A stretch of DNA of 20,000 bases from an uncultured virus (IMG/VR IMGVR_UViG_3300028591_000115) (Duplodnaviria; Heunggongvirae; Uroviricota; Caudoviricetes). The stretch's first letter is position 1. Every line of letters starts with the position of its first letter. A program made the translations under genes and the position numbers. The notes beneath the pieces were generated by a model. The model did no database searches. It was not told the DNA's origin and saw only the letters and a list, made by a program, of their open reading frames with translations. Positions 1-20,000 of the stretch are shown piece after piece. The DNA is taken from IMG/VR virus record IMGVR_UViG_3300028591_000115, one strand, 5' to 3'.

Positions 1-47
1 TCACGAATAATAATATCATTATTAAAATCAGTTCCATAATACATCAT
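1..47 (-). CDS. 5' end of the next virion-module gene (partial; MMYYGTDFNNDIIIR...)
   Basis: ATG at 47 or 44 overlaps the TGA of the upstream gene (ATGA coupling). The frame stays open to the window edge. Confidence 0.5.
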   Translation of the reverse strand, partial: MMYYGTDFNNDIIIR

Positions 48-634
48 TCGTTTCCACCACCGATCGGCTCCCATGCATACTCATCACCATAATATTGATT
101 ATTGTATACATTGATCTGAGTCAATGCGCCGTAGCCAGAATTAGCTGTAACCTCCTCTGCTGCGGTTTGCTCAGGAATAGCACTTTGATTAATGGTAAGC
201 CAGTTAGACATAATATGTCCATCTAATGCTTTAAAACGACGTTTATACAAACGTTGGAAATGTATGTTTTCTCTATTGACTTCTGCCTTTAAATTTAAAA
301 GCTTCGCAAGATGATTAGCTTGCGAAGTAAATTTAAAATCTGAACCAGAATATTTCATTCTTGTATTTTCAACAGAAGCAATCTATCTATCCAACCAATT
401 CATTTTCATTAATATCGCAAGGATATTAATTTCTTCCTTGGTTAAATCAACATTATAAACTCCCTCTTCTTCATCATAATCATATGGTGCAAAACGAGGA
501 AATTCAAACTGAGGAATGGCATCAAGTAAATACTATTTTGCATCACGAATAGTGTCTTCTTCAGTAAGTTCCAAGTACATATCGTCGGTAATCTTACTAA
601 AGAACCTATCAATGATAGTATTAAATGACGTCAT
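44..634 (-). CDS. Putative head-completion/head-tail adaptor protein, 196 aa with TAG=Gln
   Basis: ATG at 634 with an AGGAGGA RBS at 641-647. ORF 44..358 extends through in-frame TAGs at 383 and 533 (MTSFNTIIDRFF...WLDR*IASVENTRMKYSG). Product inferred from its position downstream of the capsid gene. Confidence 0.7.
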
Positions 635-651
635 TTAACATCCTCCTTAGT

Positions 652-1242
652 TTATTTCTTTACGACATTATACTTAGGAGTTGTTCTGCGGCCACTTGTT
701 TCTTTAGCAGCTGCTGGCTGCACACGACGTCCAGGAGTTTTTTCAACATTCATTCCACTCTCTGTCTGTTCTTTAGCTGCAGCTTCTTCTGCCGCAAGTT
801 CTTCTTTATGCTTGAGTGCAAGCGCTACGTCAAACCCAGTCTTTTCCTTAATAGCTTTGATCTTACGAGTATCTGTAAGCGGAAGTTCAAGTGAATATTT
901 CTGAACTAAATCAAGAACGCCAGCTGGTGCGAAATCAAGACAATCCAGTAATGCATCGACTGAACCATTCTTTAGAAGATCAATAACTCCCTTGTCATCT
1001 AAATAATATTCAGGCTCTACGTTCATTGACATCTCTTCCACCGCGGCGGGATTCTCAATATACAAGTAATTCGCAATAATTTCTGGTCCGCCTGCCTGTT
1101 GACTTAAAGCATAAATCTCTTCAAGAGGAACTTGCTTGGCTGCTCCAGGCATAAATTCACGACGAACTCTTAAATCATCTACATTATATACGACTATAGA
1201 ATTACTTCTATTGCGTACTGTAATCATAGTTTTATTATCCAT
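652..1242 (-). CDS. Hypothetical virion-module protein, 196 aa
   Basis: Intact ORF with AAGGAG RBS and TAA stop, directly downstream of the major capsid gene. No in-frame TAG. Confidence 0.8.
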   Translation of the reverse strand: MDNKTMITVRNRSNSIVVYNVDDLRVRREFMPGAAKQVPLEEIYALSQQAGGPEIIANYLYIENPAAVEEMSMNVEPEYYLDDKGVIDLLKNGSVDALLDCLDFAPAGVLDLVQKYSLELPLTDTRKIKAIKEKTGFDVALALKHKEELAAEEAAAKEQTESGMNVEKTPGRRVQPAAAKETSGRRTTPKYNVVKK

Positions 1243-1271
1243 ATTAACTTTTTCTCCTTTTTCTCTATAGT

Positions 1272-1308
1272 AGAATAAGCGGGCGGCGTGTTATCACGCA
1301 CGCCCGCG
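1272..1308 (-). terminator. Probable intrinsic terminator/attenuator after the major capsid gene
   Basis: GCGGGCG-GCGTG/CACGC-A-CGCCCGC hairpin followed on the minus strand by TTATTCT. Confidence 0.6.
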
Positions 1309-1319
1309 ATCAATTTTTA

Positions 1320-2531
1320 TTAATCCTTAGTGTAGTAGGTCTTGCCATCTGCAAGCTCAACATCAGAGGTCTTTACATAAGATCCATTAACGAGTTCATA
1401 ATAGGTGCCAATATCTGCTACCTTAGGATTTGTTACTACAGTATAAGTGTCAGTAGTTGGAGTAGTAGAATTGCTCTGCTTATCACCAGTATAAACTGCA
1501 TACTGACCAGCAAGTTCAGTATCCTTATATACGCAAATATCAGGAGTCATTACGACACCAACGCCGACTTTCTTGTATACCTGAATTTCACGGCTACGAT
1601 CCTTGTTGACATATTCATCAACAATTGTAGAGCCTTCCATAACAACCTTAACTGGCTTTACATTACCTGGGAGGATATAGCAGAAACCTGGATCAATAAC
1701 CTTAGTGGTATGAGTAGCATCAGTGAAACCCTGTGGAAGAATATTAATCACATGATTCTTATAAGAAGCAAAGCGACCATTATTCCAAATGGTATCCTTC
1801 ATGCTATCAGACCAAGAAGCGTAAGTACCATTACCATTGCTTGGAAGAATCTTCTGAGCGAACTCTTCAGTACAATAAATGGTAGGAGTGCCATAAGCGG
1901 CAGAAATAGCGATCAAACGATCAAATGCCTTTTCATCGAAACCATTGGTTACAACAGTATTCAATGCAGGAAGCTGAGTAAGACCTTCCTTAAGGGCAGC
2001 ACCGATTTCCCAATGAATGAGTTCTTCGATACCTTCCATAACGATACGGGTCACTTCAGCAAAATCAGCACGGCCATCAAGGAACTCTTCAAGACCGATC
2101 TGAGCAGCACCACCGATAGCGCTAGTCTGTACTTCGATAGGTGTATCTTTACCAAGCTTGAATACTTCGTAGATACCAGCAAGACCAACTTTAGTGATGA
2201 ACTGCTTTGCGCGCTGACGATCATGTTTACGCCAGAAGATTGTAGAATTGCCCTGAGCAATAGTCTTTACCTCTGCGAACTTTTCAAACTCTTCCTCAAC
2301 TTTCTTAGGAAGAATATCATCCATAGTCTCTTCAATTAAAGAGAAAATGGTGTTCTTATTTTCACGATAAAGGGCGAAAGTACCAGCTAATTCGTTCATT
2401 TCAGAACGAAGGGTTTCATTAAGAGCATCATAGCTCAAATTTTCGCCATTGAATGAATAAGCAACAGGAGCAGAGCGGTCAGCTTTAGCAGTTGCCTTCA
2501 TCAATTTAAGAAGTTCATTTCTTTCTAACAT
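1320..2531 (-). CDS. Major capsid protein, 403 aa, with a short C-terminal appended domain
   Basis: Size, position (portal-protease/scaffold-decoration-capsid order), strong RBS and downstream hairpin fit a capsid gene. A Thr/Ser linker precedes a Tyr-rich C-terminal tail. No in-frame TAG. Confidence 0.8.
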   Translation of the reverse strand: MLERNELLKLMKATAKADRSAPVAYSFNGENLSYDALNETLRSEMNELAGTFALYRENKNTIFSLIEETMDDILPKKVEEEFEKFAEVKTIAQGNSTIFWRKHDRQRAKQFITKVGLAGIYEVFKLGKDTPIEVQTSAIGGAAQIGLEEFLDGRADFAEVTRIVMEGIEELIHWEIGAALKEGLTQLPALNTVVTNGFDEKAFDRLIAISAAYGTPTIYCTEEFAQKILPSNGNGTYASWSDSMKDTIWNNGRFASYKNHVINILPQGFTDATHTTKVIDPGFCYILPGNVKPVKVVMEGSTIVDEYVNKDRSREIQVYKKVGVGVVMTPDICVYKDTELAGQYAVYTGDKQSNSTTPTTDTYTVVTNPKVADIGTYYELVNGSYVKTSDVELADGKTYYTKD

Positions 2532-2554
2532 TGACTTTTTCTCTCCTTTCCTTA

Positions 2555-3361
2555 TTACTTAATTCTCATAACCTTGACTGCCTTCTGCATATCACCAAGG
2601 TTGTAGATCTTAACGACCTGCCACTGGAATGCAGCATTGGAAGCACCGGTAGCACTGAGATAACCATGAGCATTTGGAGTAAGAACAGATCCAAGTGTTA
2701 CGGTTGCATCAGCGATAGTATTAGTAGTAAAAATGTCACCTTCGTGAGTCTTAAATACACGAGGAACCATTAAGCCAGCCTTACCATTTCCATTTGGACG
2801 GTTTGGCTGTGCATATTCAGCCATCTGAGGAACATTAAGCTTCTCAACTTCATAGCTGTTTCCAATTGGATAATGATTACGACCATAATCTGGAGCAACT
2901 CCAGGAGCATTGCTATGACCATCGCCATAGATTTCAACCTGGCTCTGAATAGCCTTCATCATATCCCAATCAGCAGAACTAGCAAAACCATTAATTTTGG
3001 TACCATTGATGCCCTGAGCAGAACCCCAATCAGCAGAAGCTCCACCAACACCAACTGGACTATAAACGCGACCATTGTAGTCACGACGGATCATAGCGAA
3101 ATCCTGATCAGTTTCATGATCACGATATACCTTAACTTCATTGAAAACGAGCATCCATTCGCCAGGACCTGTAAAGTTTACTTCACCATTAGCATAGTCG
3201 TACTTAACGAACTGACCATTCTCAAGAATATCAATACTTGCAGCTACAGGTAACTGTGCATAAATTTCAGCAGTTCTCTGAGCACTGAGATGGTTAGGCT
3301 CGACCTGTCCGAAACCAAGTGTAACAAACTGAGCTTCTGGAGACAATCTTGTAAAAGCCAT
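2555..3361 (-). CDS. Putative capsid decoration/minor head protein, 268 aa
   Basis: Intact Gly-rich ORF with AGGAGG RBS between the scaffold and capsid genes. Function inferred from synteny. Confidence 0.6.
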   Translation of the reverse strand: MAFTRLSPEAQFVTLGFGQVEPNHLSAQRTAEIYAQLPVAASIDILENGQFVKYDYANGEVNFTGPGEWMLVFNEVKVYRDHETDQDFAMIRRDYNGRVYSPVGVGGASADWGSAQGINGTKINGFASSADWDMMKAIQSQVEIYGDGHSNAPGVAPDYGRNHYPIGNSYEVEKLNVPQMAEYAQPNRPNGNGKAGLMVPRVFKTHEGDIFTTNTIADATVTLGSVLTPNAHGYLSATGASNAAFQWQVVKIYNLGDMQKAVKVMRIK

Positions 3362-3384
3362 ACTTAGCTTCCTCCTTTATAAAA

Positions 3385-4716
3385 TTAGTTCATTTCTTTG
3401 GCGGTTTCACGCACGGCCTTAATCCAAGCAGGTGCGTTATCCTCACCATCATTACCATTTAATTCATAAATGGTAGGCTCTTTTTTGGAAGTATCCTTTT
3501 TATCGTCATCAAGGCTAAAAGAAACCTTGTTACGAACACAAATAATAGATAATTTAGCTTCGATATCATTGAGACTATAAGTGTCAATATTATCAATGCA
3601 ATCCTTCTTATCTTCATCAGAAAGCATATAGAAGCTATCAATCATATCTTGCTTTGCTTTACGATCAGCTTCAACTTTAAATGTACGAAGTGGTTCAACT
3701 TCAGCCTTTAAAGCTTCAAACTGTCTCTGGAGTTCAGTAAACTGAACAGCAAGATTCTTATAGAGATCAGATTCAGCGACTTCATCATCAGTTAAAGAAT
3801 GCTTACCAAATGGTGGCTTCTTCTTCTTATCTTCGTCATCTTCTTCTTCCTTCTTGTCGTCACCGGACTCAGGCTTCTTTTCATCTTCGCCGCCCTTATC
3901 CTCTTCATCCTTCTTTGGAGGGAATGGATTCTCTTTCTTTTCTTCCTTTTTGTCTTCTTCTTCCTTCTTCTTGAAGTCAACATCAGGGTTTTCCAAAGTA
4001 GGATCATTTACATTCTTGTTTTCTTCATTCATAGAAGTAAATCCTCCTTTGCTTAAAGCAGATTTAATATCCTCCATCAAGGAGAATAATTGGTTCTTGA
4101 AGTCGCCATCATACGAGAACTGTGCTGCAATACCCGCACCTTCAAAACAAGGTTCAACGTCTTCTCCAAGAATACAAAGCTTTTGTATCATTGCTTCATC
4201 AATTATGAAAAACTTTGGCAATCCTTTATCATCAAATGTCCAAGAGCCCTTCAAATTTTCTTCATTGAGTTCCATAGATTGATTATTTCCATGTTCTAAA
4301 ATTCTTTTAGATTCTGGATATAATGTTGTCCATAAATACCCCTCAGTTAATAAGTAAGTGCGTCTAACTTGATTGTCATCAATAAAGTCTTGGAACCAAA
4401 TCTTTGAACTAGAATCGACAAAGCCATAAGCCTTAGTTCTATCAACAATACGGAACTTACCATCGCCAACTTCAATACTACGGTTGTGACCAGAGAAATC
4501 TTCCTCTTTATTATCATAAAATCCAGCAATCGGGCAACCATGTAAAGTCTTTGCCATCTTAATAGCGGATTCTTTGTCAATCACACTATGATTGCGGTTC
4601 TCGCCAAGATAACAAACTTTAATATCACAATGGCTCAATAATGGATTATCTGACATTGGAGCCACATTAAGTAATTCAACCGTTCCATCAATCGGAACGC
4701 TAACATGTTTAGGCAC
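3385..4716 (-). CDS. Prohead protease-scaffold fusion, 443 aa
   Basis: GTG start with AAGGAG RBS. The N-terminal globular domain (NRNHS, QSMEL, LCILGEDVEPCFEGA) is followed by a K/E/D low-complexity tract and coiled coil typical of scaffolds. Confidence 0.75.
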   Translation of the reverse strand: MPKHVSVPIDGTVELLNVAPMSDNPLLSHCDIKVCYLGENRNHSVIDKESAIKMAKTLHGCPIAGFYDNKEEDFSGHNRSIEVGDGKFRIVDRTKAYGFVDSSSKIWFQDFIDDNQVRRTYLLTEGYLWTTLYPESKRILEHGNNQSMELNEENLKGSWTFDDKGLPKFFIIDEAMIQKLCILGEDVEPCFEGAGIAAQFSYDGDFKNQLFSLMEDIKSALSKGGFTSMNEENKNVNDPTLENPDVDFKKKEEEDKKEEKKENPFPPKKDEEDKGGEDEKKPESGDDKKEEEDDEDKKKKPPFGKHSLTDDEVAESDLYKNLAVQFTELQRQFEALKAEVEPLRTFKVEADRKAKQDMIDSFYMLSDEDKKDCIDNIDTYSLNDIEAKLSIICVRNKVSFSLDDDKKDTSKKEPTIYELNGNDGEDNAPAWIKAVRETAKEMN

Positions 4717-4721
4717 TTAAC

Positions 4722-6359
4722 TCACTCCTTTCCCGCAGCTTCACGGTTAGCTATAGTTTTATCAGATTTCTATTCATTGCTTTTTTCCGGTCTGCCCATT
4801 TTTTTATCCTCGGCCGCACCCTTAATCTAAGCCTAAGCTTTATTAGTAGCAGACTAAGCGTTTGATCCAGTCTTACCACCGAGTACATCCTCACCACGTA
4901 AAGTAGAACTCATGAGAGGCGGAATCATTAATTCTTGTAATTTCATTACATTATTCTCAAAATAAGCAGTAGCATAAATAGAACTTTGTGAATGTCCAAG
5001 AGCAATCTAAGGTAACACTTTGGAGAAACCAAGTTGTGTATGCTCTTTATATAACTTAGACAATTCTTTATAATTATTAATAGTAGTTTCAAGCATATTA
5101 AAATGCAAACACCACTTTTTATTTCCTGGGAACTTATTATTTAAGATCCTAGTAAATAACTCATCAAACTCAAAAATTAAATCTCTGATACTTGCTTCAT
5201 CAACAGCACTCGCTTTCTCAAGAGCAAGATTACTATTAGAGTTAAATAGGTTTTGAGAAACACCAGCTTCATTATAAACAGTGCGCTCAACTTTTTCAAG
5301 TTCATCTCTTGTTGCTGTAGTATTCTTATCAGCAAGATCGGCAACATCTACATCTGCAAACGTTGTCATAACATCTACGCCAATAGCACGCTTCAACATC
5401 TATACTGTATTATTATGAATATCTTTTGCTTCATCAACGTCAAATATCAAATCACCATTTTTATCTAATGGTAATTTTTGAATAATGACTTTTAATAACT
5501 TCTGCATCATCTTACGACGATCCAGATCTTGCGCTTCGTCCAAGTCCAATATCTTTGAAGTAACATTTACAAGCATTGGAACATCTTGTCCAGCAATATT
5601 AATCTTAAAAGCACAATCTGGATCTAACAACCACCATGTGCCCTCAGTATATCCATTCTTTGGATTGTTCAATTTGCCCTTCTTATAAGCAATATAAGCT
5701 TCAGAAAATTCTGAAGGATACATTTTTAAAACTCTTAAACGAGTTTCAATATCCGGAAATTGTTCATCAAAAAATCTTGGATTAAATTCTACTGCTGGTC
5801 TATTACCTACTTTGAACCGAGAGCGGCAATATGCAATTGGTAACTATTGGAATGTAAAGCCATTTGAGGTTTCTATAATATAGCCATAATAGCATCCATT
5901 AAGAATTACCTGCAATGCCACATCTTGGCACAACTTTTTCACTCCTGCATGATCAAAATAATCTAGAGCTTCAGAAAACTCCTTTAAAATTTTGTCATTC
6001 TTCTTTTCATTCTCCTCGATTACATAAGGAGTAATATACCAATCATATCTATAAAGACCGGCAAAATATTTAACCAATCTTTCATACATACCACTTACTT
6101 CAAAGAAGTAATTTGATATTTCTCTTAATAAAGGATAATCTTTTCTAGCCAATGCCGCAAGAACAGCCAATTTATTATAAGTTTTCTTGCTAGTCTTCTT
6201 AATGGCACCAAGATCTAATACAGCATCATCAAGTGTCTAGAAATAATTAACTTTTACTTTTCCATAATCTACTTGACTACCATAAATGTCATGAAGTTCT
6301 GGACGTTGGACTATTGAGAAGCCTTTGGAATGGATTAAATCCTAACGATTCTATTCCAA
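4722..6359 (-). CDS. Portal protein, 545 aa with TAG=Gln
   Basis: ORF fragments 5007..5399, 5400..5723 and 5844..6170 share one frame. In-frame TAGs lie at 4770, 4827, 4833, 4854, 5007, 5400, 5844, 6237, 6342 and 6351. TTG start 7 nt after AAGGAGG; TGA stop at 4722. Lies between terminase and protease. Confidence 0.8.
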
Positions 6360-6371
6360 GCCAATCCCTCC

Positions 6372-6737
6372 TTAATATCCAGCTTTTTCCATGATATAAT
6401 CATACGAAATTAAGTTTTCATCTGTATAAGGGATTTCGATTAGATTATATTCATTTAATGCGCAGAATCTGCGCTTATTTTTATCGTTGAACTATTGACG
6501 ATAGAAACCTTGCTTTCCACCATATTTACTGGAAGGTTCAAAATGTTGTTTTCCCTAATATTCAATTAAGAAATCCACATTACCATCATCATCAAACACG
6601 CAAAAGTCAAATCTTAATGGGCGACCATTTGGACTATTTAAACCTTCGAATGATTGCTCCATGGTGAAATTGAAGCCTGCATCGCGCAATATTTCTTCAA
6701 TCTTAATCTCTCCTCTTGAAGCTCGCAACTTTGACAC
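6372..6737 (-). CDS. PD-(D/E)xK / DUF559-Vsr-like endonuclease, about 121 aa with TAG=Gln
   Basis: Carries the motif LRFDF...LIEY*GKQH, then ND..KR.FC...LIEIPY. TAGs at 6555 and 6492; TAA stop at 6372. Confidence 0.8.
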
Positions 6738-6738
6738 C

Positions 6739-8469
6739 TCAATTCATAAATAACATATCGCTAAATCTTTTTTTATTACGTTTACGTTTTTTATCTTCTT
6801 CTAATTTTATCCAATACAGACCATATTCAAAAGCAGAAAATTTATCCTTTTTAATACCTTTATTTGCTTGCTTCAAAATGATATTAACACCTTCGTTTTC
6901 TTCACGAAGATTCATCATTTCTTCCTTTAATATGGAAGTCAAAGTAAATGGTTTAAGATATTCTGCCCGTTCTTCGGGCTTCATCTCTTGACCACGCTTG
7001 GTGGCCATTAACTTAATTTTTGCAACACGCTCATCAATTAACATCTTAACTCTGCCAGCTTGCATCATTGATTGTACATTACCATGTACTTCAGTATTAA
7101 TTGGCGCGTTAGCTTTAATTATCCATAAAGCATTTTCTTCACAAACCGCAGTTCTATATTTTTTATACTCGCCTTCTTCGTCATTATCAACACCAAAATC
7201 AGCAATAAGATCTCCAGTATCAGGATCAGTTTGACCTTTTACTAAATAATCAACTAAACCAATACCAAGACCGTTACCATCAATAACAACTTTTTTGGCT
7301 TTATATTTATAATATAATTTTTTAATACGAATACATTGTTCTTCAAAATGCATATCACTTAATGGATAGATATTGACTAAACTAATTAAAGCATTTCCCG
7401 CAGTTTGAGGATTAACCTTAAACACACAAATTACTGTATCACATCCACGTCTACCAACGTCGACAGAAAGTACATAATAAGCATTTTTTGTACTACGTCC
7501 AGAAAATTCATACTCTGGTTGCTTTAATATTCTATTATGATCAAATTGCTCTGCATTAAAGAATGCATCTTCTATTGTGCCGGACCAAACAGATTCATAT
7601 TCACGTTCAAATGAAGATTCATTAAACGTACCGTCCATTTTAAGATCTCTAATAAAGTTCTTATCGAGCAAATCCATTAAAACCGGAATTCTCCAAGTAC
7701 CACCCATGACCATCGCGCGATCAGGCTTTACAATCTCCCAACACAATAATTGAATTAATTTATCATAAGCGAATGTATTCTTCCAACCTGCTGTTGTAAC
7801 ATAAATCTATGATTTATTTAATACTTCATTATCATCTTTACCACCACACGCTGCACGTCTTGAAACGTTCATCGTAGGGATAATAACTTCATTAAGAATC
7901 GTTCCATCAATACCGACGCACTCCTCCATGAGTCCGCCATGGCGGCGTTGTCCTCTCGAAGTTTCACGAGCTGCTATATTGTCCAGCACTGACCCGTTCT
8001 TAAATATGTATCTAACATAATCTTTTCCCTCCATTGTCTTGCCGCGACGCCAATCAATCTCATCGCGCAATGGTGGGATTAAATGACATAATTCTTGCAC
8101 CTTAGCTTTAATAATACTTGATGCCTATTCCTTACCACCAGATGTAACAAATAATTTTGCTCCTGGATACAGTATACAGCGAATTATTAAAATTAATGCG
8201 GCCAAGAATGATTTTGAGTAAGCACGTGGGAATACTGCGTAAGTATATTTGTAACGCATTGCCGCACGTAAGAACACTCTCTAATAAAAGAATAAATGGA
8301 AATTTTCCGGATTATTCTTTTCAAGTAAAAAATCAACAAATAAATCTGGATACTCTCGCCAGAAAGAAACCCATTTACGAGCCACAGGTATGCAAGCCCG
8401 CACACGTTCTTCTGACAAACCAATTTTATCTACTCCAGTTTTTAAGTTGAGTAAATCCTAAAGCGCCAT
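6739..8469 (-). CDS. terL: Terminase large subunit, 576 aa with TAG=Gln
   Basis: One frame through TAGs at 7807, 8125, 8281 and 8458. Contains FY*R (adenine-binding Q motif), Walker A-like PRAYSKS, RGQRRHGGLMEE (Walker B region), VTTAG coupling motif, and RNase H-like LSVDVGR ... KDKFSA. Confidence 0.92.
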
Positions 8470-9650
8470 TATTCATCATCCTCTCCGAGGAGTTCACGAA
8501 TAGTAGCTTCATCTTCTTCTTGTTCACTTTCAACGAATTCATAATGTTTTAAGAAATCATTATCATTAAGAACTTCATCCTCAATTTCTTGTAGATCTAA
8601 ATCCTCAATCTCAGTAGTTTCAGAATCTTCTTCTTTTGCTTCTTCTCTTGCCATGGTTCTAACCGCGTTCTCAATAAGATTACCAAGATTCATTTCTTCA
8701 GTAACTAGCTTATGAGTATATCCACGAAGATCAGCAAGCGTTTCATCTACACGATCTTTTGGTTCATCTGTATAATATCTTGGAATAAAGTCTTCTCTTT
8801 CACACAACAGGATAAACTCGTCAATAGCGGAAACAAATTCTCCGCTCTCTGCTTTGTTCTGCGCAGCAGTAAATTTCGCAGACTTCATAAGCGTATCATA
8901 AACTTTAGACATTTTCTGAAATCCTTCAATGTCACCAAGATCAACTAACTAATGACACTTCAAAGAAGTCTTACAAATTAATTTTAAATAATCTTCATGA
9001 GCCGGGGTAACAATATCAAATGCCGCCATCATTTCTTGGTATAATTTCTCTAACTGAACCCACTCATATGGCCTATAAGCTTTTCCCCATTTAAGTGTAA
9101 GATACTTCTTATCTTCTTCAGTTAAATCATCATCAAAGAAATCTGGGGCATTTAAATCTATAGGAGCGGCACCTGTCTATTCGGCTTCCGCAGCTTTAAA
9201 ATCTTCCGGCTTTTCTGGCATAGTACCAGTTTGAATAGCATTTTCAATTTCTTCTCCGGTATAACCCTATCGCGCCATAACTTCAGCTTTCTTCGCATTC
9301 ATCTCTTCGCGCAATCTCTCGGTATCGGCCCAAGTATATGAACTAAATTGTTTCATACGCATCTTAGATAAATAACGACCAAGAATAGTCATACCAGTTG
9401 TCTTTCTTGGATCTTTAGCATAACGATCCAATAAAGTTGTCCATTCCTCTTCAATATAAGGAACGTCAATATCTTCCAGAATCCACAAATAAGTTTTAGG
9501 ATCCCAGTTATCTACGTGTCTAGTTAAACATTTTTTACATTCAGGTAAAAACCCATCAGGATATTTATCAGTTCTTTTTGTTTGGTAAAACTGATTTTCG
9601 TCCATTGTACGATTACACGTTTTACAATACAATGTTTTTCCATCGGCCAT
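8469..9650 (-). CDS. Zn-finger protein with acidic C-terminus (candidate terminase small subunit), 393 aa with TAG=Gln
   Basis: ORFs 9267..9650 and 8469..8912 join through TAGs at 9267, 9177 and 8949. N-terminal CKTC...CKKC. Its stop overlaps the terL start. The TerS role is inferred from position only. Confidence 0.7.
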
Positions 9651-9653
9651 TTG

Positions 9654-10724
9654 TTAGCACTCCTTTTTCTTGCTATTGCGGCACTTCTTACAAATACTAT
9701 AAAATCCATCTTTACTCGTTTTATTAATACTAAAGAATTTTGAATGAGCTAATTTAACTTCGCCACACCGGCTGCATTTCTTCCACTTACCTTTTTCTAC
9801 ATAAGTGAAATACCACATTATCCATTCGTCTTGTGCCTTTTGCGCAATTAGTTTTGGAATCTTATTCCGCCACAAACTGCTTATGTATTCTATTGAGTGC
9901 GTAAATTGGAACTCTTGTTCAAGTAATGCTTGTATTTCTACGTTCTGTAATCGTTCTTGTTTATACTGAACTATGCGTCTATACATCGGAAAATCCGCTA
10001 ATGCTCTTTCTACCAGCGGCGTAAAATCCTAAATCATATACCATGTATCGCCTTCGAAATTACCTTCAGATCGTCCTTTTAATAAGGGATACAATTGAAG
10101 AATTTCGTTTATAACTCGATAATCACAGAATGAAACACCTTCATATTTAATTACAGCATTATCATTGTCATCATATTCTATCCATTCATTCCAAGGTAAT
10201 GGTGGGAACGTTTTCATACCTCTCGATAATTTAGTGAATACAATGGGACGCTTGTAAGCATTTTTTACAACATATTGGTCTTTCCGCAATTCAATTAGCG
10301 TACTTTTTATTATATACGCCGCACGTCCGGTTGCAGTCTTTTGTAACCTTTCCCAGAATTCAATACTTTCTCTGAGACGTTTTAACTACGGTATATCTTC
10401 TATGTCTTGCTTTGTGATAGTAACTTTAGGTTGAAAAATTGTATTTTTTCCATTATCAGTAATTAAATTGTAAATTCCATCTTCACCGTTCTCTAATTGA
10501 CTGACCAGACCTTCATAAGAAATTTCTCGTTTATTAATCGTTGCTAAACGATTTTCAGTAAGAATTTTCTTCTCCTTTTTCTCTTGTTTCTCCATACAAA
10601 GAACCAAGTAATCCGCTAGAGCCTCTAGATACTACTCGCTTGGGTCGGGTACTTCTAACAAGATCTATTCTACTAGTTTGCGTCTTTCTTCTGGAGAATC
10701 AATAGTATAATCTAATTGAATTAT
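9654..10724 (-). CDS. Putative sigma-like/HTH transcription regulator with C-terminal Zn finger, about 356 aa with TAG=Gln
   Basis: Three ORF fragments join through TAGs at 10029, 10386, 10632 and 10665. Has an HTH-like segment (NVEIQALLEQEF..HSIEYISSLW) and CSRC...CKKC. Start is uncertain (ATA at 10724, 9 nt after AGGAG). Confidence 0.65.
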
Positions 10725-10772
10725 ACCAATCAACTCCTTATAATGGTCTATTTGTCCCCACTTACTACACTC

Positions 10773-10801
10773 ATTATACTAAAAAATTTTATGCAAGTCA
10801 A
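10773..10801 (-). promoter_or_regulatory. sigma-A-type promoter for the recoded head/packaging operon
   Basis: TTGACT-17 bp-TATAAT on the minus strand. Confidence 0.8.
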
Positions 10802-12718: not shown

Positions 12719-12931
12719 TCCGAAATTGAAAATACTTTTGGAGTGGGAATGGTCCAGGCAAAGAGCTTTTTTCAAAAAATAATAATTTTTTTCCCGAAAG
12801 TGGCCCCGGGGTCTAGCCTATCAGCAACATGCGTGTTGGTAGGCTTTTCACATGCCTAGGGTGCGAAAGTTTTTTGTTTTTAAGCTGACAAAAAAATAGG
12901 TAGGTAGTCTGGGGTCTCGCCAAACGCGCAC

Positions 12932-12958
12932 CCGGGCGTGCATGGTCAGCACGCCCGG
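12932..12958. repeat. GC-rich inter-cassette hairpin H1
   Basis: CCGGGCGTGC-ATGGTCA-GCACGCCCGG followed by CATTT. Confidence 0.8.
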
Positions 12959-13009
12959 CATTTAAGCCAAAGCAAGGGTTACACATTTTCGCCAGCGCAT
13001 CGATACACA

Positions 13010-13638: not shown

Positions 13639-14040
13639 ATGACTTACTACTGGGACATGGACGGAGTGCTCGCCAACTTCCACAAGGCTTACGCTAATGA
13701 CCGGGCTATCGCCCTCAAGCGTGAAGCGATGGCGAACCTTGAGCCCTTCATGGCCAACGTGGTTACCGTCCGGAATCTGATGGCTGAAGGCCACACCTGC
13801 TACATCCTCACCAAGGCCGCCAACGCTGAAGGCGCTGAAGGCAAGGTCGAGTGGCTCGCCAAGTACATCCCCGAGATGGACGAGGCCCACACCATCATCA
13901 TCACCAAGGGCCGCAAGGTTGACAACATCCGTGAGGATGGAATCCTGGTGGATGATGATGCCGCCAACACCCGGCAGTGGGAAAAGGCCGGACACAAGGC
14001 CATCCTCCTCACCACCAAGGGCGAGGCCGTCCGGATCTGA
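13639..14040 (+). CDS. HAD-superfamily phosphatase, 5'(3')-deoxyribonucleotidase-like (paralog 1)
   Basis: Motif I WDMDGVLANF, motif II ILT, K..WL, motif IV ILVDD; GGAGG RBS. Confidence 0.85.
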   Translation: MTYYWDMDGVLANFHKAYANDRAIALKREAMANLEPFMANVVTVRNLMAEGHTCYILTKAANAEGAEGKVEWLAKYIPEMDEAHTIIITKGRKVDNIREDGILVDDDAANTRQWEKAGHKAILLTTKGEAVRI

Positions 14041-14985: not shown

Positions 14986-15042
14986 AGTGAGAGAGAGTAG
15001 CAACTCTTGAAGGGCGCTCGACAGAGCCAGAGGTGGCCCACC
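14986..15042 (+). ncRNA. Small structured RNA, family copy C (short form)
   Basis: Promoter 14951-14979 has no ORF before the next promoter. Core ACTCTT..GGGC-GCTC-GACA-GAGC-N8-GCCC matches copies A and B. Confidence 0.6.
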
Positions 15043-15134
15043 AAAAAAAACTGCTACAAATTTTGAAAAAACCCTTGACAGGATCAGCAAAAGGTGCTAT
15101 ACTCTTATCAGATCAAGAGAGGAGCGGATGAACG

Positions 15135-16136: not shown

Positions 16137-16165
16137 GCCGACCGCGCGCGACCGGCGCGGTCGGC
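16137..16165. repeat. GC-rich inter-cassette hairpin H4 (loop inverted)
   Basis: GCCGACCGCGC-GCGACCG-GCGCGGTCGGC-ATTT; the loop reads CGGTC on the minus strand. Confidence 0.8.
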
Positions 16166-16210
16166 ATTTGAGTTGTAAAGGGGTCTCAGGGTTTGTGCTT
16201 GCGAAAGGGT

Positions 16211-16496: not shown

Positions 16497-16931
16497 ATGA
16501 AGATCTGGTTCGACATGGATGGAACGATCGCCGATCTGTACGGCGTGACTGATTGGCTCCCGGCTCTGATCGCCGAAGATACCCGCCCTTACGAAGTGGC
16601 GAAGGGGATCGGCAATCTCGCTCTGATCGCTCGGCTCCTCAACAAGGTGCAGGCGAACGGTCACGAGATTGGAATCATCTCTTGGACGGCTAAAGCCGGA
16701 ACCGCCGGATACAACGCTCGGATTTACGCCGCAAAGGTTGGTTGGCTCGGCAAGCACCTTCCTTCCGTAAACTGGGACACGATCCTTGTCAAGCCCTACG
16801 GAACTGACAAGCGGGTTGCCACTGGTGGCGGGATCCTCTTCGATGATGAGGAACCGAACCGGATCGGATGGGGCGAAGGCGCCCACACTCCTGCCGAGAT
16901 CGTGGAAGTCCTCAAGGCTCTTACCAGATAA
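16497..16931 (+). CDS. HAD-superfamily phosphatase, 5'(3')-deoxyribonucleotidase-like (paralog 2)
   Basis: Motif I FDMDGTIADL, IIS, K..WL, ILFDD. Confidence 0.85.
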   Translation: MKIWFDMDGTIADLYGVTDWLPALIAEDTRPYEVAKGIGNLALIARLLNKVQANGHEIGIISWTAKAGTAGYNARIYAAKVGWLGKHLPSVNWDTILVKPYGTDKRVATGGGILFDDEEPNRIGWGEGAHTPAEIVEVLKALTR

Positions 16932-18051: not shown

Positions 18052-18080
18052 GCCGGTCGTTGCTGGGCGCGACGACCGGC
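18052..18080. repeat. GC-rich inter-cassette hairpin H6
   Basis: GCCGGTCGTTGC-TGGGC-GCGACGACCGGC-ATTT. Confidence 0.8.
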
Positions 18081-18192
18081 ATTTAGATTTTGGTAGGGTC
18101 TGCATAATTATACAATCGCATTGCATAAAAAAAGTGCTTGACAGCCGATCCTGTATCTGGTACAATAGTGGTGGAAAGGAAGGTGCTACCCC

Positions 18193-18627
18193 ATGACTGA
18201 ACTGACTGCGATCCGTGACTTCGTTGAGCTGATCACCGGCATCCGCCCTGTGATCGCACGCAAGCGTGACGATTGGTCTGTTATTTCCGAAGCCGACTCC
18301 ATGCGGATGACCGTCCCCACGGTCTACACCGGCTCCGAAACTGACAAGGCTTTCCGCAAGGACTTTGTGAGCCGTTGCCCTCTTGCCCGGGGCTTCGCTG
18401 ATGTTACCATTAGCATCCTGCACGAGATGGGGCACTTCGCCACCCGTGACAACTTCAACAGCGATGTGTACACCGCACAAGTTGAGGAAGCCGGCGCCGA
18501 CATGGAAAAATACATGGCGATCCCTTACGAGATGCTCGCCACCTGTTGGGCGATCTGTTGGCTGATGGATCCGGACAACCGGAAAGAAGCCAAAAATTTT
18601 GAGAAAAATTTCTTCGGAAGGGGTTGA
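18193..18627 (+). CDS. HExxH zinc-metallopeptidase-like early protein
   Basis: ILHEMGHF motif with a downstream Glu (PYE..A); own promoter and RBS. Confidence 0.7.
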   Translation: MTELTAIRDFVELITGIRPVIARKRDDWSVISEADSMRMTVPTVYTGSETDKAFRKDFVSRCPLARGFADVTISILHEMGHFATRDNFNSDVYTAQVEEAGADMEKYMAIPYEMLATCWAICWLMDPDNRKEAKNFEKNFFGRG

Positions 18628-18657
18628 CAAACCGCCCCGGATCTGATACAATGATCA

Positions 18658-18941
18658 TGTTGAAAGGAGATGGTTCCGATGGGGATCGAAGCCCCCGGCC
18701 CGCAGGCAGGTGCGAAGCGGGCCACATGGGCGGGAGGTAAGCACCCAGCCGGTTGAGGAGAGGGCCCCCAAGACCGGCAAGCGAACCTTGGCAAGTGAAT
18801 GGAGGATGGCCACCGCCTTAAGAAGCCCCAGGGAGGCTGAAGCCGATTGCGAGAGCGCAAGTTGCTCGTGTAAGACCTTCAAACTCGGGAAACGAGGATG
18901 CCCCGAACCCTGTTGATACAGAGCCGAACGGCTCTTTTTTT
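18658..18941 (+). ncRNA. Large structured RNA 1 (~240-nt core plus terminator)
   Basis: Lies between promoter 18624-18652 and terminator 18920-18941. 5' GGTTC..GGGG-ATC pairs with 3' GAT-G-CCCC-GAACC. Several internal stems and no convincing ORF. Confidence 0.75.
18920..18941 (+). terminator. Intrinsic terminator
   Basis: AGAGCC-GAAC-GGCTCT followed by a T run. Confidence 0.85.
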
Positions 18942-18945
18942 ATTG

Positions 18946-18974
18946 GCCGAGCGTGCGCGGGCCACACGCTCGGC
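18946..18974. repeat. GC-rich inter-cassette hairpin H7
   Basis: GCCGAGCGTG-CGCGGGCCA-CACGCTCGGC-ATTT. Confidence 0.8.
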
Positions 18975-19065
18975 ATTTGGGATCAGCTAAGGGTTCAGAA
19001 AAAAAATTTTGCAAATCGGCCAAAAAAGTGTTGACAAATGGCTCCCGTTATGGTATTCTATACTC

Positions 19066-19516
19066 ACCGGAAGGGGTTAGAGCCCGGGGCCACGGGTGCC
19101 AAAGCCGATGGAAGGAGCTACGCGCGGAGCGCCCCGCGCGCGGAAGAACCCGGGGGGTTGGAGTAGCGCACCAAGGGCCGAAGGCCAAGGCCGGATCTCC
19201 CGGGGCCGAAACTACTACGTTGAGGGTAGGCAGAGCCGGAACATCGGGTAGCCGAGCCGGTGGGGCCCATGAGAGCCTGTAAGACCTCCCCAATGAAACG
19301 ACCGCAGGCCGAAGTCCTACTCTGCGGTATACGGGGCGAGGAACCCCGGGGTCCGAAAGGGCTCAAATGTGCGGGCAACAACAGGGGAGCGTCTGGGACC
19401 CCGGGGCCAGTAGGATGGACGCAAAGGGTGGTAACCTGCCCGACGAAGAGCCGGGCTTGAGACCTCAAGTGCGAGGACGAATAGCCAACAGAGGGATCAG
19501 CTGATCCCCCTTTTTT
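19066..19516 (+). ncRNA. Large structured RNA 2 (~380-nt core plus terminator)
   Basis: Lies between promoter 19031-19059 and terminator ~19491-19516. AGCCCGG (19081-87) pairs with CCGGGCT (19451-57). Many internal helices, a GAAA tetraloop, and no RBS-led ORF. Confidence 0.75.
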
Positions 19517-19523
19517 CATTTGA

Positions 19524-19553
19524 GCTGGTCGCGGGCGGCCGCGCGCGACCAGT
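19524..19553. repeat. GC-rich inter-cassette hairpin H8
   Basis: GCTGGTCGCG-GGCGGCCGCG-CGCGACCAGT. Confidence 0.8.
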
Positions 19554-19645
19554 TTTCACGCTTCAGAGAGGATCCAGAAAAAAAGATTTGCAAAAGGCAG
19601 AAAAAAAGTGTTGACATCGGCTCCCGGATGTGGTATTATACTGTC

Positions 19646-19752
19646 AGAGGGAGAAGGCAGTGAACCGGCTGACACTCCTAAAGGGCGCCGAAAGGCAAGT
19701 GCGAGCCCCGCAAAACAAAAGTCACCGGCACGGGCGGGTCCGAACCGCCCAC
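19646..19752 (+). ncRNA. Small structured RNA, family copy B
   Basis: Promoter 19611-19639, no ORF, paralog of 16211-16328 (minus strand). Confidence 0.8.
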
Positions 19753-19818
19753 AAAAAAGTTGTTGACAGATCATAAGGTCTGTGCTATAATGAAGCCATC
19801 AAGAGAAGGGAGCTAACC

Positions 19819-20000
19819 ATGATGAATACCGAAGTTATCAAGGCAATGCAGGGCAACAAGAAGGAACATAAGGCGCGCAAGTGGTGGCACAAGAATGGTT
19901 ACAAGGTCATGCGCGTGATCCTGTTTCCGTTCTGGATCGGAAGTATCCTGATCAACAAGTGCCGGGCATGGCTCAACAATCGGCAGGAATGGAGCGAAGA
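19819..20000 (+). CDS. Hypothetical early protein (partial, basic with a hydrophobic stretch)
   Basis: Promoter 19763-19791, GGGAG RBS, MMNTEVIKAMQGNKKEHKARKWW... open to the window end. Confidence 0.7.
   Translation, partial: MMNTEVIKAMQGNKKEHKARKWWHKNGYKVMRVILFPFWIGSILINKCRAWLNNRQEWSE

What the first reader, a model, noticed from the sequence alone, without database searches (positions are those of the whole stretch)
19066..19516. Large structured RNA 2 (~430-450-nt transcript) of unknown family
Seen: a very GC-rich unit with promoter and terminator and no RBS-led ORF. Closing helix AGCCCGG/CCGGGCU. Internal helices include CGCGCGG/CCGCGCG (19121-40), GGCC-GAA-GGCC, ACCGCAG/CUGCGGU (19301-28), CGGGG/CCCCG, GGGUCC-GAAA-GGGCUC, and CGGGCA/UGCCCG (19372-442) enclosing GCGUCU/GGACGC. 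Established: ornate large ncRNAs such as GOLLD and ROOL occur in phages of Bacillota. Inference: this is a new or divergent large RNA, possibly catalytic or a scaffold.
Basis: partly seen in the sequence, partly recalled or inferred. Interest (0 to 1): 0.82.

Follow-up and report, generated by a model that had tools for sequence, protein, structure and literature searches.

The report
Modular triple-knotted rumen phage RNA
A large virus of rumen bacteria carries a gene for an intricately knotted RNA that makes no protein; its fold is preserved by compensating mutations across many related viruses and it gains and loses add-on parts, but its job is inferred, not shown.

Summary
The whole 451 nt folds no better than shuffles (z 0.2), and two proposed long-range helices are not conserved. 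Homolog searches gave 91 distinct members, including this one. All 15 virus records tested carry a homolog of one putative capsid protein. The conserved part is about 200 nt (19218-19422): a three-way-junction domain (kink-turn in 27 of 91) plus a core with three covarying long-range pairings. The window carries a long form with an extra 5' module, two optional hairpins and a covarying 3' module. In one relative the 5' half of the neighbouring RNA is fused to the same core. A bovine metatranscriptome contig spans 19076-19494 only (weak hint). No Rfam match. Best guess (about 0.4): a stable, early, trans-acting RNA that binds a host factor. This scan probably found the same family before on other DNA (e1-5892860, e1-5952326).

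The parts
19031..19059 (+). sigma70/sigmaA-type promoter (TTGACA-17-TATTCT, extended -10); start site predicted near 19066
   Evidence: one of an array of near-consensus cassette promoters
19066..19217 (+). 5' accessory module; fold unresolved apart from hairpin 19121-19140
   Evidence: only one other homolog, L198, 94% identical; no pair changes on both sides; also covered by the X22 RNA contig
19218..19300 (+). domain A: kink-turn stem (19218-26 with 19289-19300) leading to a three-way junction; hairpins 19235-61 (holding an insertion shared with L122) and 19264-77; conserved junction GUAAGAC at 19279-85
   Evidence: 21 sequences chosen by a pattern that required the GA/GA motif; 7 of 18 pairs change on both sides; junction variants in all 91 members, where the motif was the membership filter
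19302..19331 (+). domain B, P1 hairpin; its loop holds the kissing strand GCC (19308-10) and the 5' strand of PK1 (19314-21)
19332..19364 (+). two optional hairpins, replaced by 1 nt in 74 of 91 members
   Evidence: skip also seen in contigs of runs X22 and X4
19365..19422 (+). domain B, 3' half: AAAUGUG linker; GGC kissing partner (19374-76); PK2 (19382-87 with 19399-403); P6 (19389-94 with 19417-22); 3' strand of PK1 (19409-16)
   Evidence: PK2 4 of 6, P6 5 of 6, PK1 2 of 8 pairs change on both sides; for divergent members
19425..19486 (+). 3' accessory module: hairpins 19425-37, 19438-56 and 19461-78, and a possible 3-bp pseudoknot 19430-32 with 19484-86
   Evidence: 8 sequences; 8 of 18 pairs change on both sides; X22 variants 19425+19437 are compensatory
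19493..19516 (+). intrinsic terminator
   Evidence: X22 RNA contig ends at 19494
18659..18940 (+). neighbouring RNA 1, related but separate: its 5' half (18659-18780) is fused to domains A+B in L107, and by inspection 18840-18893 resembles domain A; no domain B
   Evidence: a fused junction is also seen in X22 record 1

Best explanation
SHOWN: this is a non-coding RNA gene of an uncatalogued family, with a compact two-domain core (three-way junction plus a core locked by three long-range pairings). It sits as a swappable cassette behind a host-type promoter in the early-cassette region of a lineage of large gut phages, and carries exchangeable 5', internal and 3' modules. INFERRED: host RNA polymerase makes it in quantity right after infection; the knotted fold resists nucleases; and the sequence-conserved junction and linker bases form a surface that binds and neutralises or redirects one conserved host factor (a defence nuclease or sensor, or an RNA-binding regulator) in trans. 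The paired strands can change freely as long as they pair, so it does not act by base-pairing to target RNAs. The accessory modules add stability or extra binding surfaces. About 0.95 that it is a structured ncRNA with this core fold; the confidence below is for the mechanism.
For: Fold: 97.8% of 1178 cells paired against 85.8% shuffled and 37-45% slid; 13 of 31 pairs change on both sides. PK1 pairs with its own downstream strand in 22 of 26 loop classes against 67 of 504 cross pairs. The kissing strands switch together: 62 GCC/GGC and 29 GGN/NCC. Stand-alone in most members: the first feature downstream is a terminator-like hairpin in 38, the next promoter in 22, an RBS-led ORF in 21, a tRNA in 3, nothing in 7, of 91. 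No neighbouring ORF family is shared by more than 20 of 89 member loci. Promoter-like site upstream in 81 of 86, within 110 nt of P1 in 72 (loose pattern, no shuffle control). Occurs in TAG-recoded phages and in one that is not. RNA contig 19076-19494 in X22 with no loose end, where DNA runs go on.
Against: No partner was identified or tested. Early timing is inferred from promoter type and cassette context only. RNA evidence is contigs, not reads: X3's contig (18947-19552) overruns both predicted ends, and only one study gives the boundaries. Apparent invariance of P1, KAUA and AARUGU is partly built into the search patterns (a pattern-breaking member is L475). Not found in the two database relatives tested, phAss-1 and Enterococcus phage EF1, so it is probably dispensable in the wider lineage.
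Confidence: 0.4

Rival explanations
1. Cis-acting 5' stabiliser: the knotted core at the 5' end blocks 5'-to-3' decay (RNase J type) or shields the message of the downstream early gene or tRNA.
For: The core starts within 110 nt of the promoter in 72 of 86; an ORF follows in 21 and a tRNA in 3 of 91.
Against: 60 of 91 end at a terminator or the next promoter with nothing to protect; the downstream ORFs are unrelated. The window's own copy ends in a terminator.
Confidence: 0.15
2. Small-molecule sponge: a free aptamer that soaks up a host signalling nucleotide (alarmone or immune second messenger).
For: Riboswitch-like size, multi-pseudoknot core with conserved junction bases, and no expression platform. 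Phage protein sponges are recalled precedent, not checked here.
Against: No ligand clue from gene context; no Rfam aptamer match; no natural RNA sponge precedent appeared.
Confidence: 0.13
3. Ribozyme, self-cleaving or acting on another RNA.
For: Nested pseudoknots with peripheral insertion sites are typical of ribozyme cores (established knowledge); a few copies abut tRNA genes (L182, L355, L378).
Against: No known ribozyme model matches. One X22 contig runs unbroken through the whole RNA. Most copies have nothing to be released from. tRNA adjacency is 4 of 91 within about 140 nt.
Confidence: 0.12
4. RNA-only oligomer or cage, as for ROOL and GOLLD, with the long-range pairings partly intermolecular.
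For: Similar habitat and phage context (PMC12286853 passages). Tandem paralogs in one genome use different PK1 sequences (L041), which would keep them from cross-pairing. Self-complementary CCCGGG tracts recur in the long form (seen directly).
Against: The core is a quarter to a third the size of ROOL/GOLLD; covariation cannot tell intra- from intermolecular pairing; the palindromic tracts are not conserved in short forms.
Confidence: 0.1
5. Selfish or neutral mobile cassette with no benefit to the phage.
For: Patchy presence, shuffling and fusion of modules.
Against: Compensatory change maintained across 26 PK1 loop classes and capsids 32-91% identical implies long purifying selection; no linked mobility gene.
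Confidence: 0.05

Closest known systems
ROOL and GOLLD RNAs
   Same: Phage/prophage-encoded, multi-pseudoknot, function unknown; ROOL env-120 is from cow rumen (PMC12286853 passages).
   Different: No Rfam match; core about 170-200 nt against 659 nt and over 800 nt; located in early promoter cassettes rather than tRNA islands (RNA 3-70 kb from the nearest tRNA in four genomes, and locus table); oligomer state untested.
raiA motif (ModT) RNA
   Same: Similar size, compact pseudoknotted core with optional peripheral stems, Bacillota setting, unknown function (PMC12968392 passages).
   Different: raiA has a closing P1 that ends the whole RNA and two pseudoknots, and is bacterial. This RNA has two side-by-side domains, no closing stem, three long-range pairings, and was not found in 150+150 other host-family genomes.
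OLE RNA
   Same: Carries a kink-turn proposed to bind a protein (OapC).
   Different: No Rfam match; smaller; phage-borne; kink-turn in only 27 of 91 members; no linked partner gene.
Kayvirus phage K lncRNAs
   Same: Abundant phage non-coding RNAs, one from its own early promoter, function unknown (PMC9241854 passages).
   Different: No sequence match in the phage collection; no structure reported in the passages seen.

Membership tests
ROOL / GOLLD / OLE | match to the Rfam covariance model | tested here: not met
   0 at gathering over the window; none of these at E<=10 over 18500-20000; none in 9 and 20 homolog loci
ROOL / GOLLD | often near tRNA islands | tested here: not met
   tRNA on the same strand within about 140 nt downstream in 4 of 91; 2 of 60 loci with a tRNA by ARAGORN; none in the window or the 14 kb beyond it
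ROOL / GOLLD | RNA-only homo-oligomeric cage | not testable with these tools
   needs mass photometry or cryo-EM
raiA motif | Rfam match; closing P1 with P3-P6, PK1 and PK2 | tested here: not met
   no Rfam hit; covariation gives a different topology without a conserved closing stem
RNase P RNA | Rfam match; P4 pseudoknot with bulged U joining 5' and 3' conserved regions (feature recalled) | tested here: not met
   no Rfam hit; the look-alike 3' strand 19451-56 pairs locally and is missing from most members
group I / group II intron | interrupts a gene; conserved catalytic core | tested here: not met
   stand-alone promoter-terminator cassette; no Rfam hit
T-box leader | stem I with double T-loop, antiterminator, downstream amino-acid gene (features recalled) | tested here: not met
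   the apparent T-loop hairpin is contradicted by the parse; no such genes downstream; no Rfam hit
known self-cleaving ribozymes (HDV/theta, twister, pistol, hammerhead, glmS) | Rfam match to the catalytic core | tested here: not met
self-cleaving ribozyme of a new class | site-specific cleavage in vitro | not testable with these tools
   one unbroken RNA contig is a weak hint against
kink-turn motif | C-stem, 3-nt bulge, tandem G.A pairs, NC-stem (definition recalled) | tested here: met
   present in the window; both stems covary in 21 sequences selected for the GA/GA motif

The most novel reading that the evidence does not exclude
These phages build non-coding RNAs from exchangeable folded domains the way proteins are built from domains, and the conserved core is an RNA-based counter-defence device (a free aptamer that sequesters a host immune signal or sensor, or a new ribozyme class). 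The fusion of RNA 1's 5' half to the core in L107, the domain-A-like segment inside RNA 1, and tandem paralogs with different pseudoknot sequences fit this reading. The domain shuffling is shown; the counter-defence or catalytic role is not.
Probability: 0.18. Interest if true: 0.92.

Novelty: new variant of a known kind. Interest (0 to 1): 0.7.

Why it matters
Orphan ornate RNAs (ROOL, GOLLD, raiA, OLE) are few and their functions are an open question. This family is small enough to synthesise (about 165 nt minimal form), has a covariation-defined three-pairing core with many natural variants, comes in natural long, short and fused forms that mark core against accessory parts, and turns up in rumen RNA libraries. 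It is a tractable target for structure work and for asking whether phages use folded RNAs, not only proteins, to take over or disarm Clostridia-like hosts.

Tried and rejected
No whole genome G000 is held; the nearest virus record G001 (41 kb) has one copy. BLAST against cultured and deposited phages gave nothing for the region and only short chance hits for a short form. A 5'-end pattern gave 6 hits, none extending past 19 nt. Following the upstream 144-aa protein gave 2 loci without the RNA inside them. Energy folding was uninformative. A double T-loop / tRNA-elbow idea was dropped: the G-rich strand pairs upstream, not with the following CCC. A link to TAG recoding was rejected: G307 carries the RNA and shows no recoding (0.80 against 0.82 cover). 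A host-chromosome origin was not supported: 2 of 120 genome contigs rows were true, both in phage-like cassette DNA, and 0 of 150 other genomes in each of the two families matched (27 candidates scored per genome, so not absence). The first cross-pairing control was too loose (54% of cross pairs passed) and was tightened. The 5' module's fold could not be fixed from two sequences. The 19-nt likeness at 12800-12818 to the RNA's 5' end is not significant (E 0.089). Contig depth is not used as a measure of expression.

Full report
SETTING. The window is part of a large phage. Its left half holds terminase-like and head genes broken by TAG: long-ORF cover of the minus strand of 1-10800 rises from 0.47 to 0.90 when TAG is read through, and not with TGA. 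From about 13 kb on it is an array of small cassettes with near-consensus sigma70 promoters (17 sites against 5.5 +/- 2.6 in shuffles). Runs that hold the region are mostly sheep and bovine gut metagenomes. The 403-aa protein at 1320-2531 (called 'putative capsid' by my inference from position; PHROG 4088, unknown function) matches phAss-1 at 50% and Enterococcus phages such as EF1 at 36-37%. PMC10607447 (passages seen) places these in one group and predicts Clostridia hosts for phAss-1.

OBSERVATION. Promoter, terminator, GC content and all 14 quoted helix strands are present. Folding energy is at chance level (z 0.20), so the sequence alone did not justify 'ornate'. Rfam gave 0 hits at gathering and five unrelated hits with E 0.45-1.2.

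HOMOLOGS. A profile gave 103 hits of 23 bits or more among 326 loci plus the window, with background at most 15.5; these collapse to 66 distinct sequences. After, 216 raw pattern hits gave 118 distinct sequences. 95 of these had the domain-A junction upstream, which was not part of the pattern; 4 were offset duplicates and were dropped, leaving 91 including the window's copy. Of the 23 without the junction, 22 look like chance hits and one is a truncated true member. The 91 are related phages, not independent events. A covariance model from the first 38 found a match in all 56 member loci given to it, at 14.6-117 bits. All 15 virus records tested carry the putative capsid homolog at 32-91% identity.

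CORE FOLD (domain B, 19302-19422). 38 type-I cores were aligned (L090 left out for an insertion; 10 type-II and 3 type-III cores left out as too divergent for MAFFT). 97.8% of 1178 cells pair, against 85.8 +/- 0.5% in shuffles and 37-45% when partners are slid; 13 of 31 pairs change on both sides. P6 covaries at 5 of 6 pairs, PK2 at 4 of 6, PK1 at 2 of 8 and P1 at 2 of 6. P1's first four pairs and part of PK1 were fixed by the patterns and are no evidence. One PK2 pair fails in 14 of 38 and one PK1 pair in 5 of 38. Divergent members extend this: 26 PK1 loop classes, of which 22 pair strongly with their own downstream strand against 67 of 504 cross combinations. The third pairing, invariant, switches in step across the wider set: loop GCC with downstream GGC in 62, loop GGN with downstream NCC in 29. 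That switch may reflect only a few evolutionary events.

DOMAIN A (19218-19300). A three-way junction with a conserved GUAAG(A/U/C)C strand. In 21 sequences chosen by a pattern that required the GA/GA motif, 88.4% of cells pair against 79.1% shuffled, and 7 of 18 pairs change on both sides, including both kink-turn stems. A kink-turn-like motif is found in 27 of 91; the rest have other bulges.

ACCESSORY PARTS. The hairpins at 19332-64 are replaced by one base in 74 of 91. The 3' module occurs in 8 sequences and covaries (95.9% against 84.5%; 8 of 18 pairs; two rows lack its last hairpin and count as gaps there). The 5' module has one homolog (L198) and no fixed fold. L107 carries the 5' 122 nt of the window's RNA 1 (98% identical) joined directly to domains A+B. 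L045 keeps RNA 1 and an A+B RNA in tandem as in the window. Other members have unrelated 5' extensions of up to about 300 nt. Two phage contigs carry two paralogs each with different PK1 sequences (L041; L045 with L046).

EXPRESSION. In bovine metatranscriptome X22 one 419-nt contig covers 19076-19494 with no loose end, while DNA runs X4 and X5 continue. A second X22 contig shows the short form, and a third the RNA 1 fusion junction. Sheep run X3 has a contig over 18947-19552 that overruns both ends. X22's listed variants fit the covariation model (19425 with 19437 compensatory; 19443 with 19451 giving G-U; 19292 giving the common kink-turn bulge); 12 of its 19 differences were shown. These are contigs, so strand, ends and level are not proven.

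FUNCTION. Not coding. No fixed partner: downstream is a terminator-like hairpin in 38, the next promoter in 22, an ORF in 21 (two look spurious), a tRNA in 3 and nothing in 7 of 91, by simple rules. The commonest neighbouring ORF cluster covers 20 of 89 loci of unequal length. Not tied to recoding. Not found in 150 other genomes of each of two host families, nor in phAss-1 or EF1 (the first look gave no candidates). This points to a dispensable, trans-acting phage RNA whose shape and junction bases matter and whose paired strands do not. I put a host-factor decoy first (0.4), then cis stabiliser, ligand sponge, ribozyme, oligomeric cage and neutral cassette.

LITERATURE. Searches listed no description of this family. 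Seen: PMC12286853, PMC12968392, PMC10607447 and PMC9241854 as passages; PMC10085705 as abstract, outline, section 17 and a supplement search with no motif hit; PMC10690425 as listing and a supplement search with no motif hit in 6 files, while files 1, 2 and 4 were not searched and could hold this family as an unnamed candidate; PMC5737381 as listing only. Subscription journals and bioRxiv supplements were not covered. Features of RNase P, T-box, kink-turns and phage sponge proteins are recalled.

EARLIER SCAN NOTES. e1-5892860 (shares 8 of 62 words with L018) and e1-5952326 (3 of 127 with L010) describe what is probably this family in shorter forms; I saw them after building the model. e1-5633798 may be another. 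New here are the 450-nt long form, the domain fusion with RNA 1 and the RNA contig boundaries.

VERDICT. A real, uncatalogued structured RNA family of the orphan ornate kind; not a member of any family tested; mechanism open. Interest 0.7.

Noticed in passing
window 1-10800: Late genes (terminase, portal region) are interrupted by TAG; the phage reads TAG as an amino acid. The listed early cassette ORFs end in TAA or TGA.
   Followed up: partly
window 19643-19750 (+), 16330-16251 (-), 15003-15050 (+): A second, shorter RNA family with three paralogs in the window and a 99% identical copy plus a paralog in L010; no Rfam match.
   Followed up: no
window 18659-18940: RNA 1 has a full homolog in L045, partial ones in L107 and L138, and a domain-A-like junction at about 18840-18893 without domain B.
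   Followed up: partly
window 12932-12964, 16138-16170, 18053-18085, 18947-18979, about 19522-19553: GC-rich palindromes follow terminators at cassette boundaries (families D7, D8, D20); possible recombination or regulatory marks.
   Followed up: no
window 13639-14040 and 16497-16931: Two HAD-type deoxyribonucleotidase-like paralogs; a homolog sits beside the RNA in L010, L243 and L272.
   Followed up: partly
L182:395-477, L355:727-797, L378:401-474, L020:1642-1703: A tRNA or tRNA-like gene lies just downstream of the RNA in a few phages.
   Followed up: partly
G309 (L474, L475): A 402-kb record has two putative capsid genes and two copies of the RNA; it may be two phages joined or a duplication.
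   Followed up: no
L476:1500-1620: Weak model hit (E 0.07) inside the tRNA region of G006; not clearly a member.
   Followed up: no
window 12800-12818 (-): 17 of 19 match to the RNA's 5' end at the border of the cassette array; not significant.
   Followed up: partly
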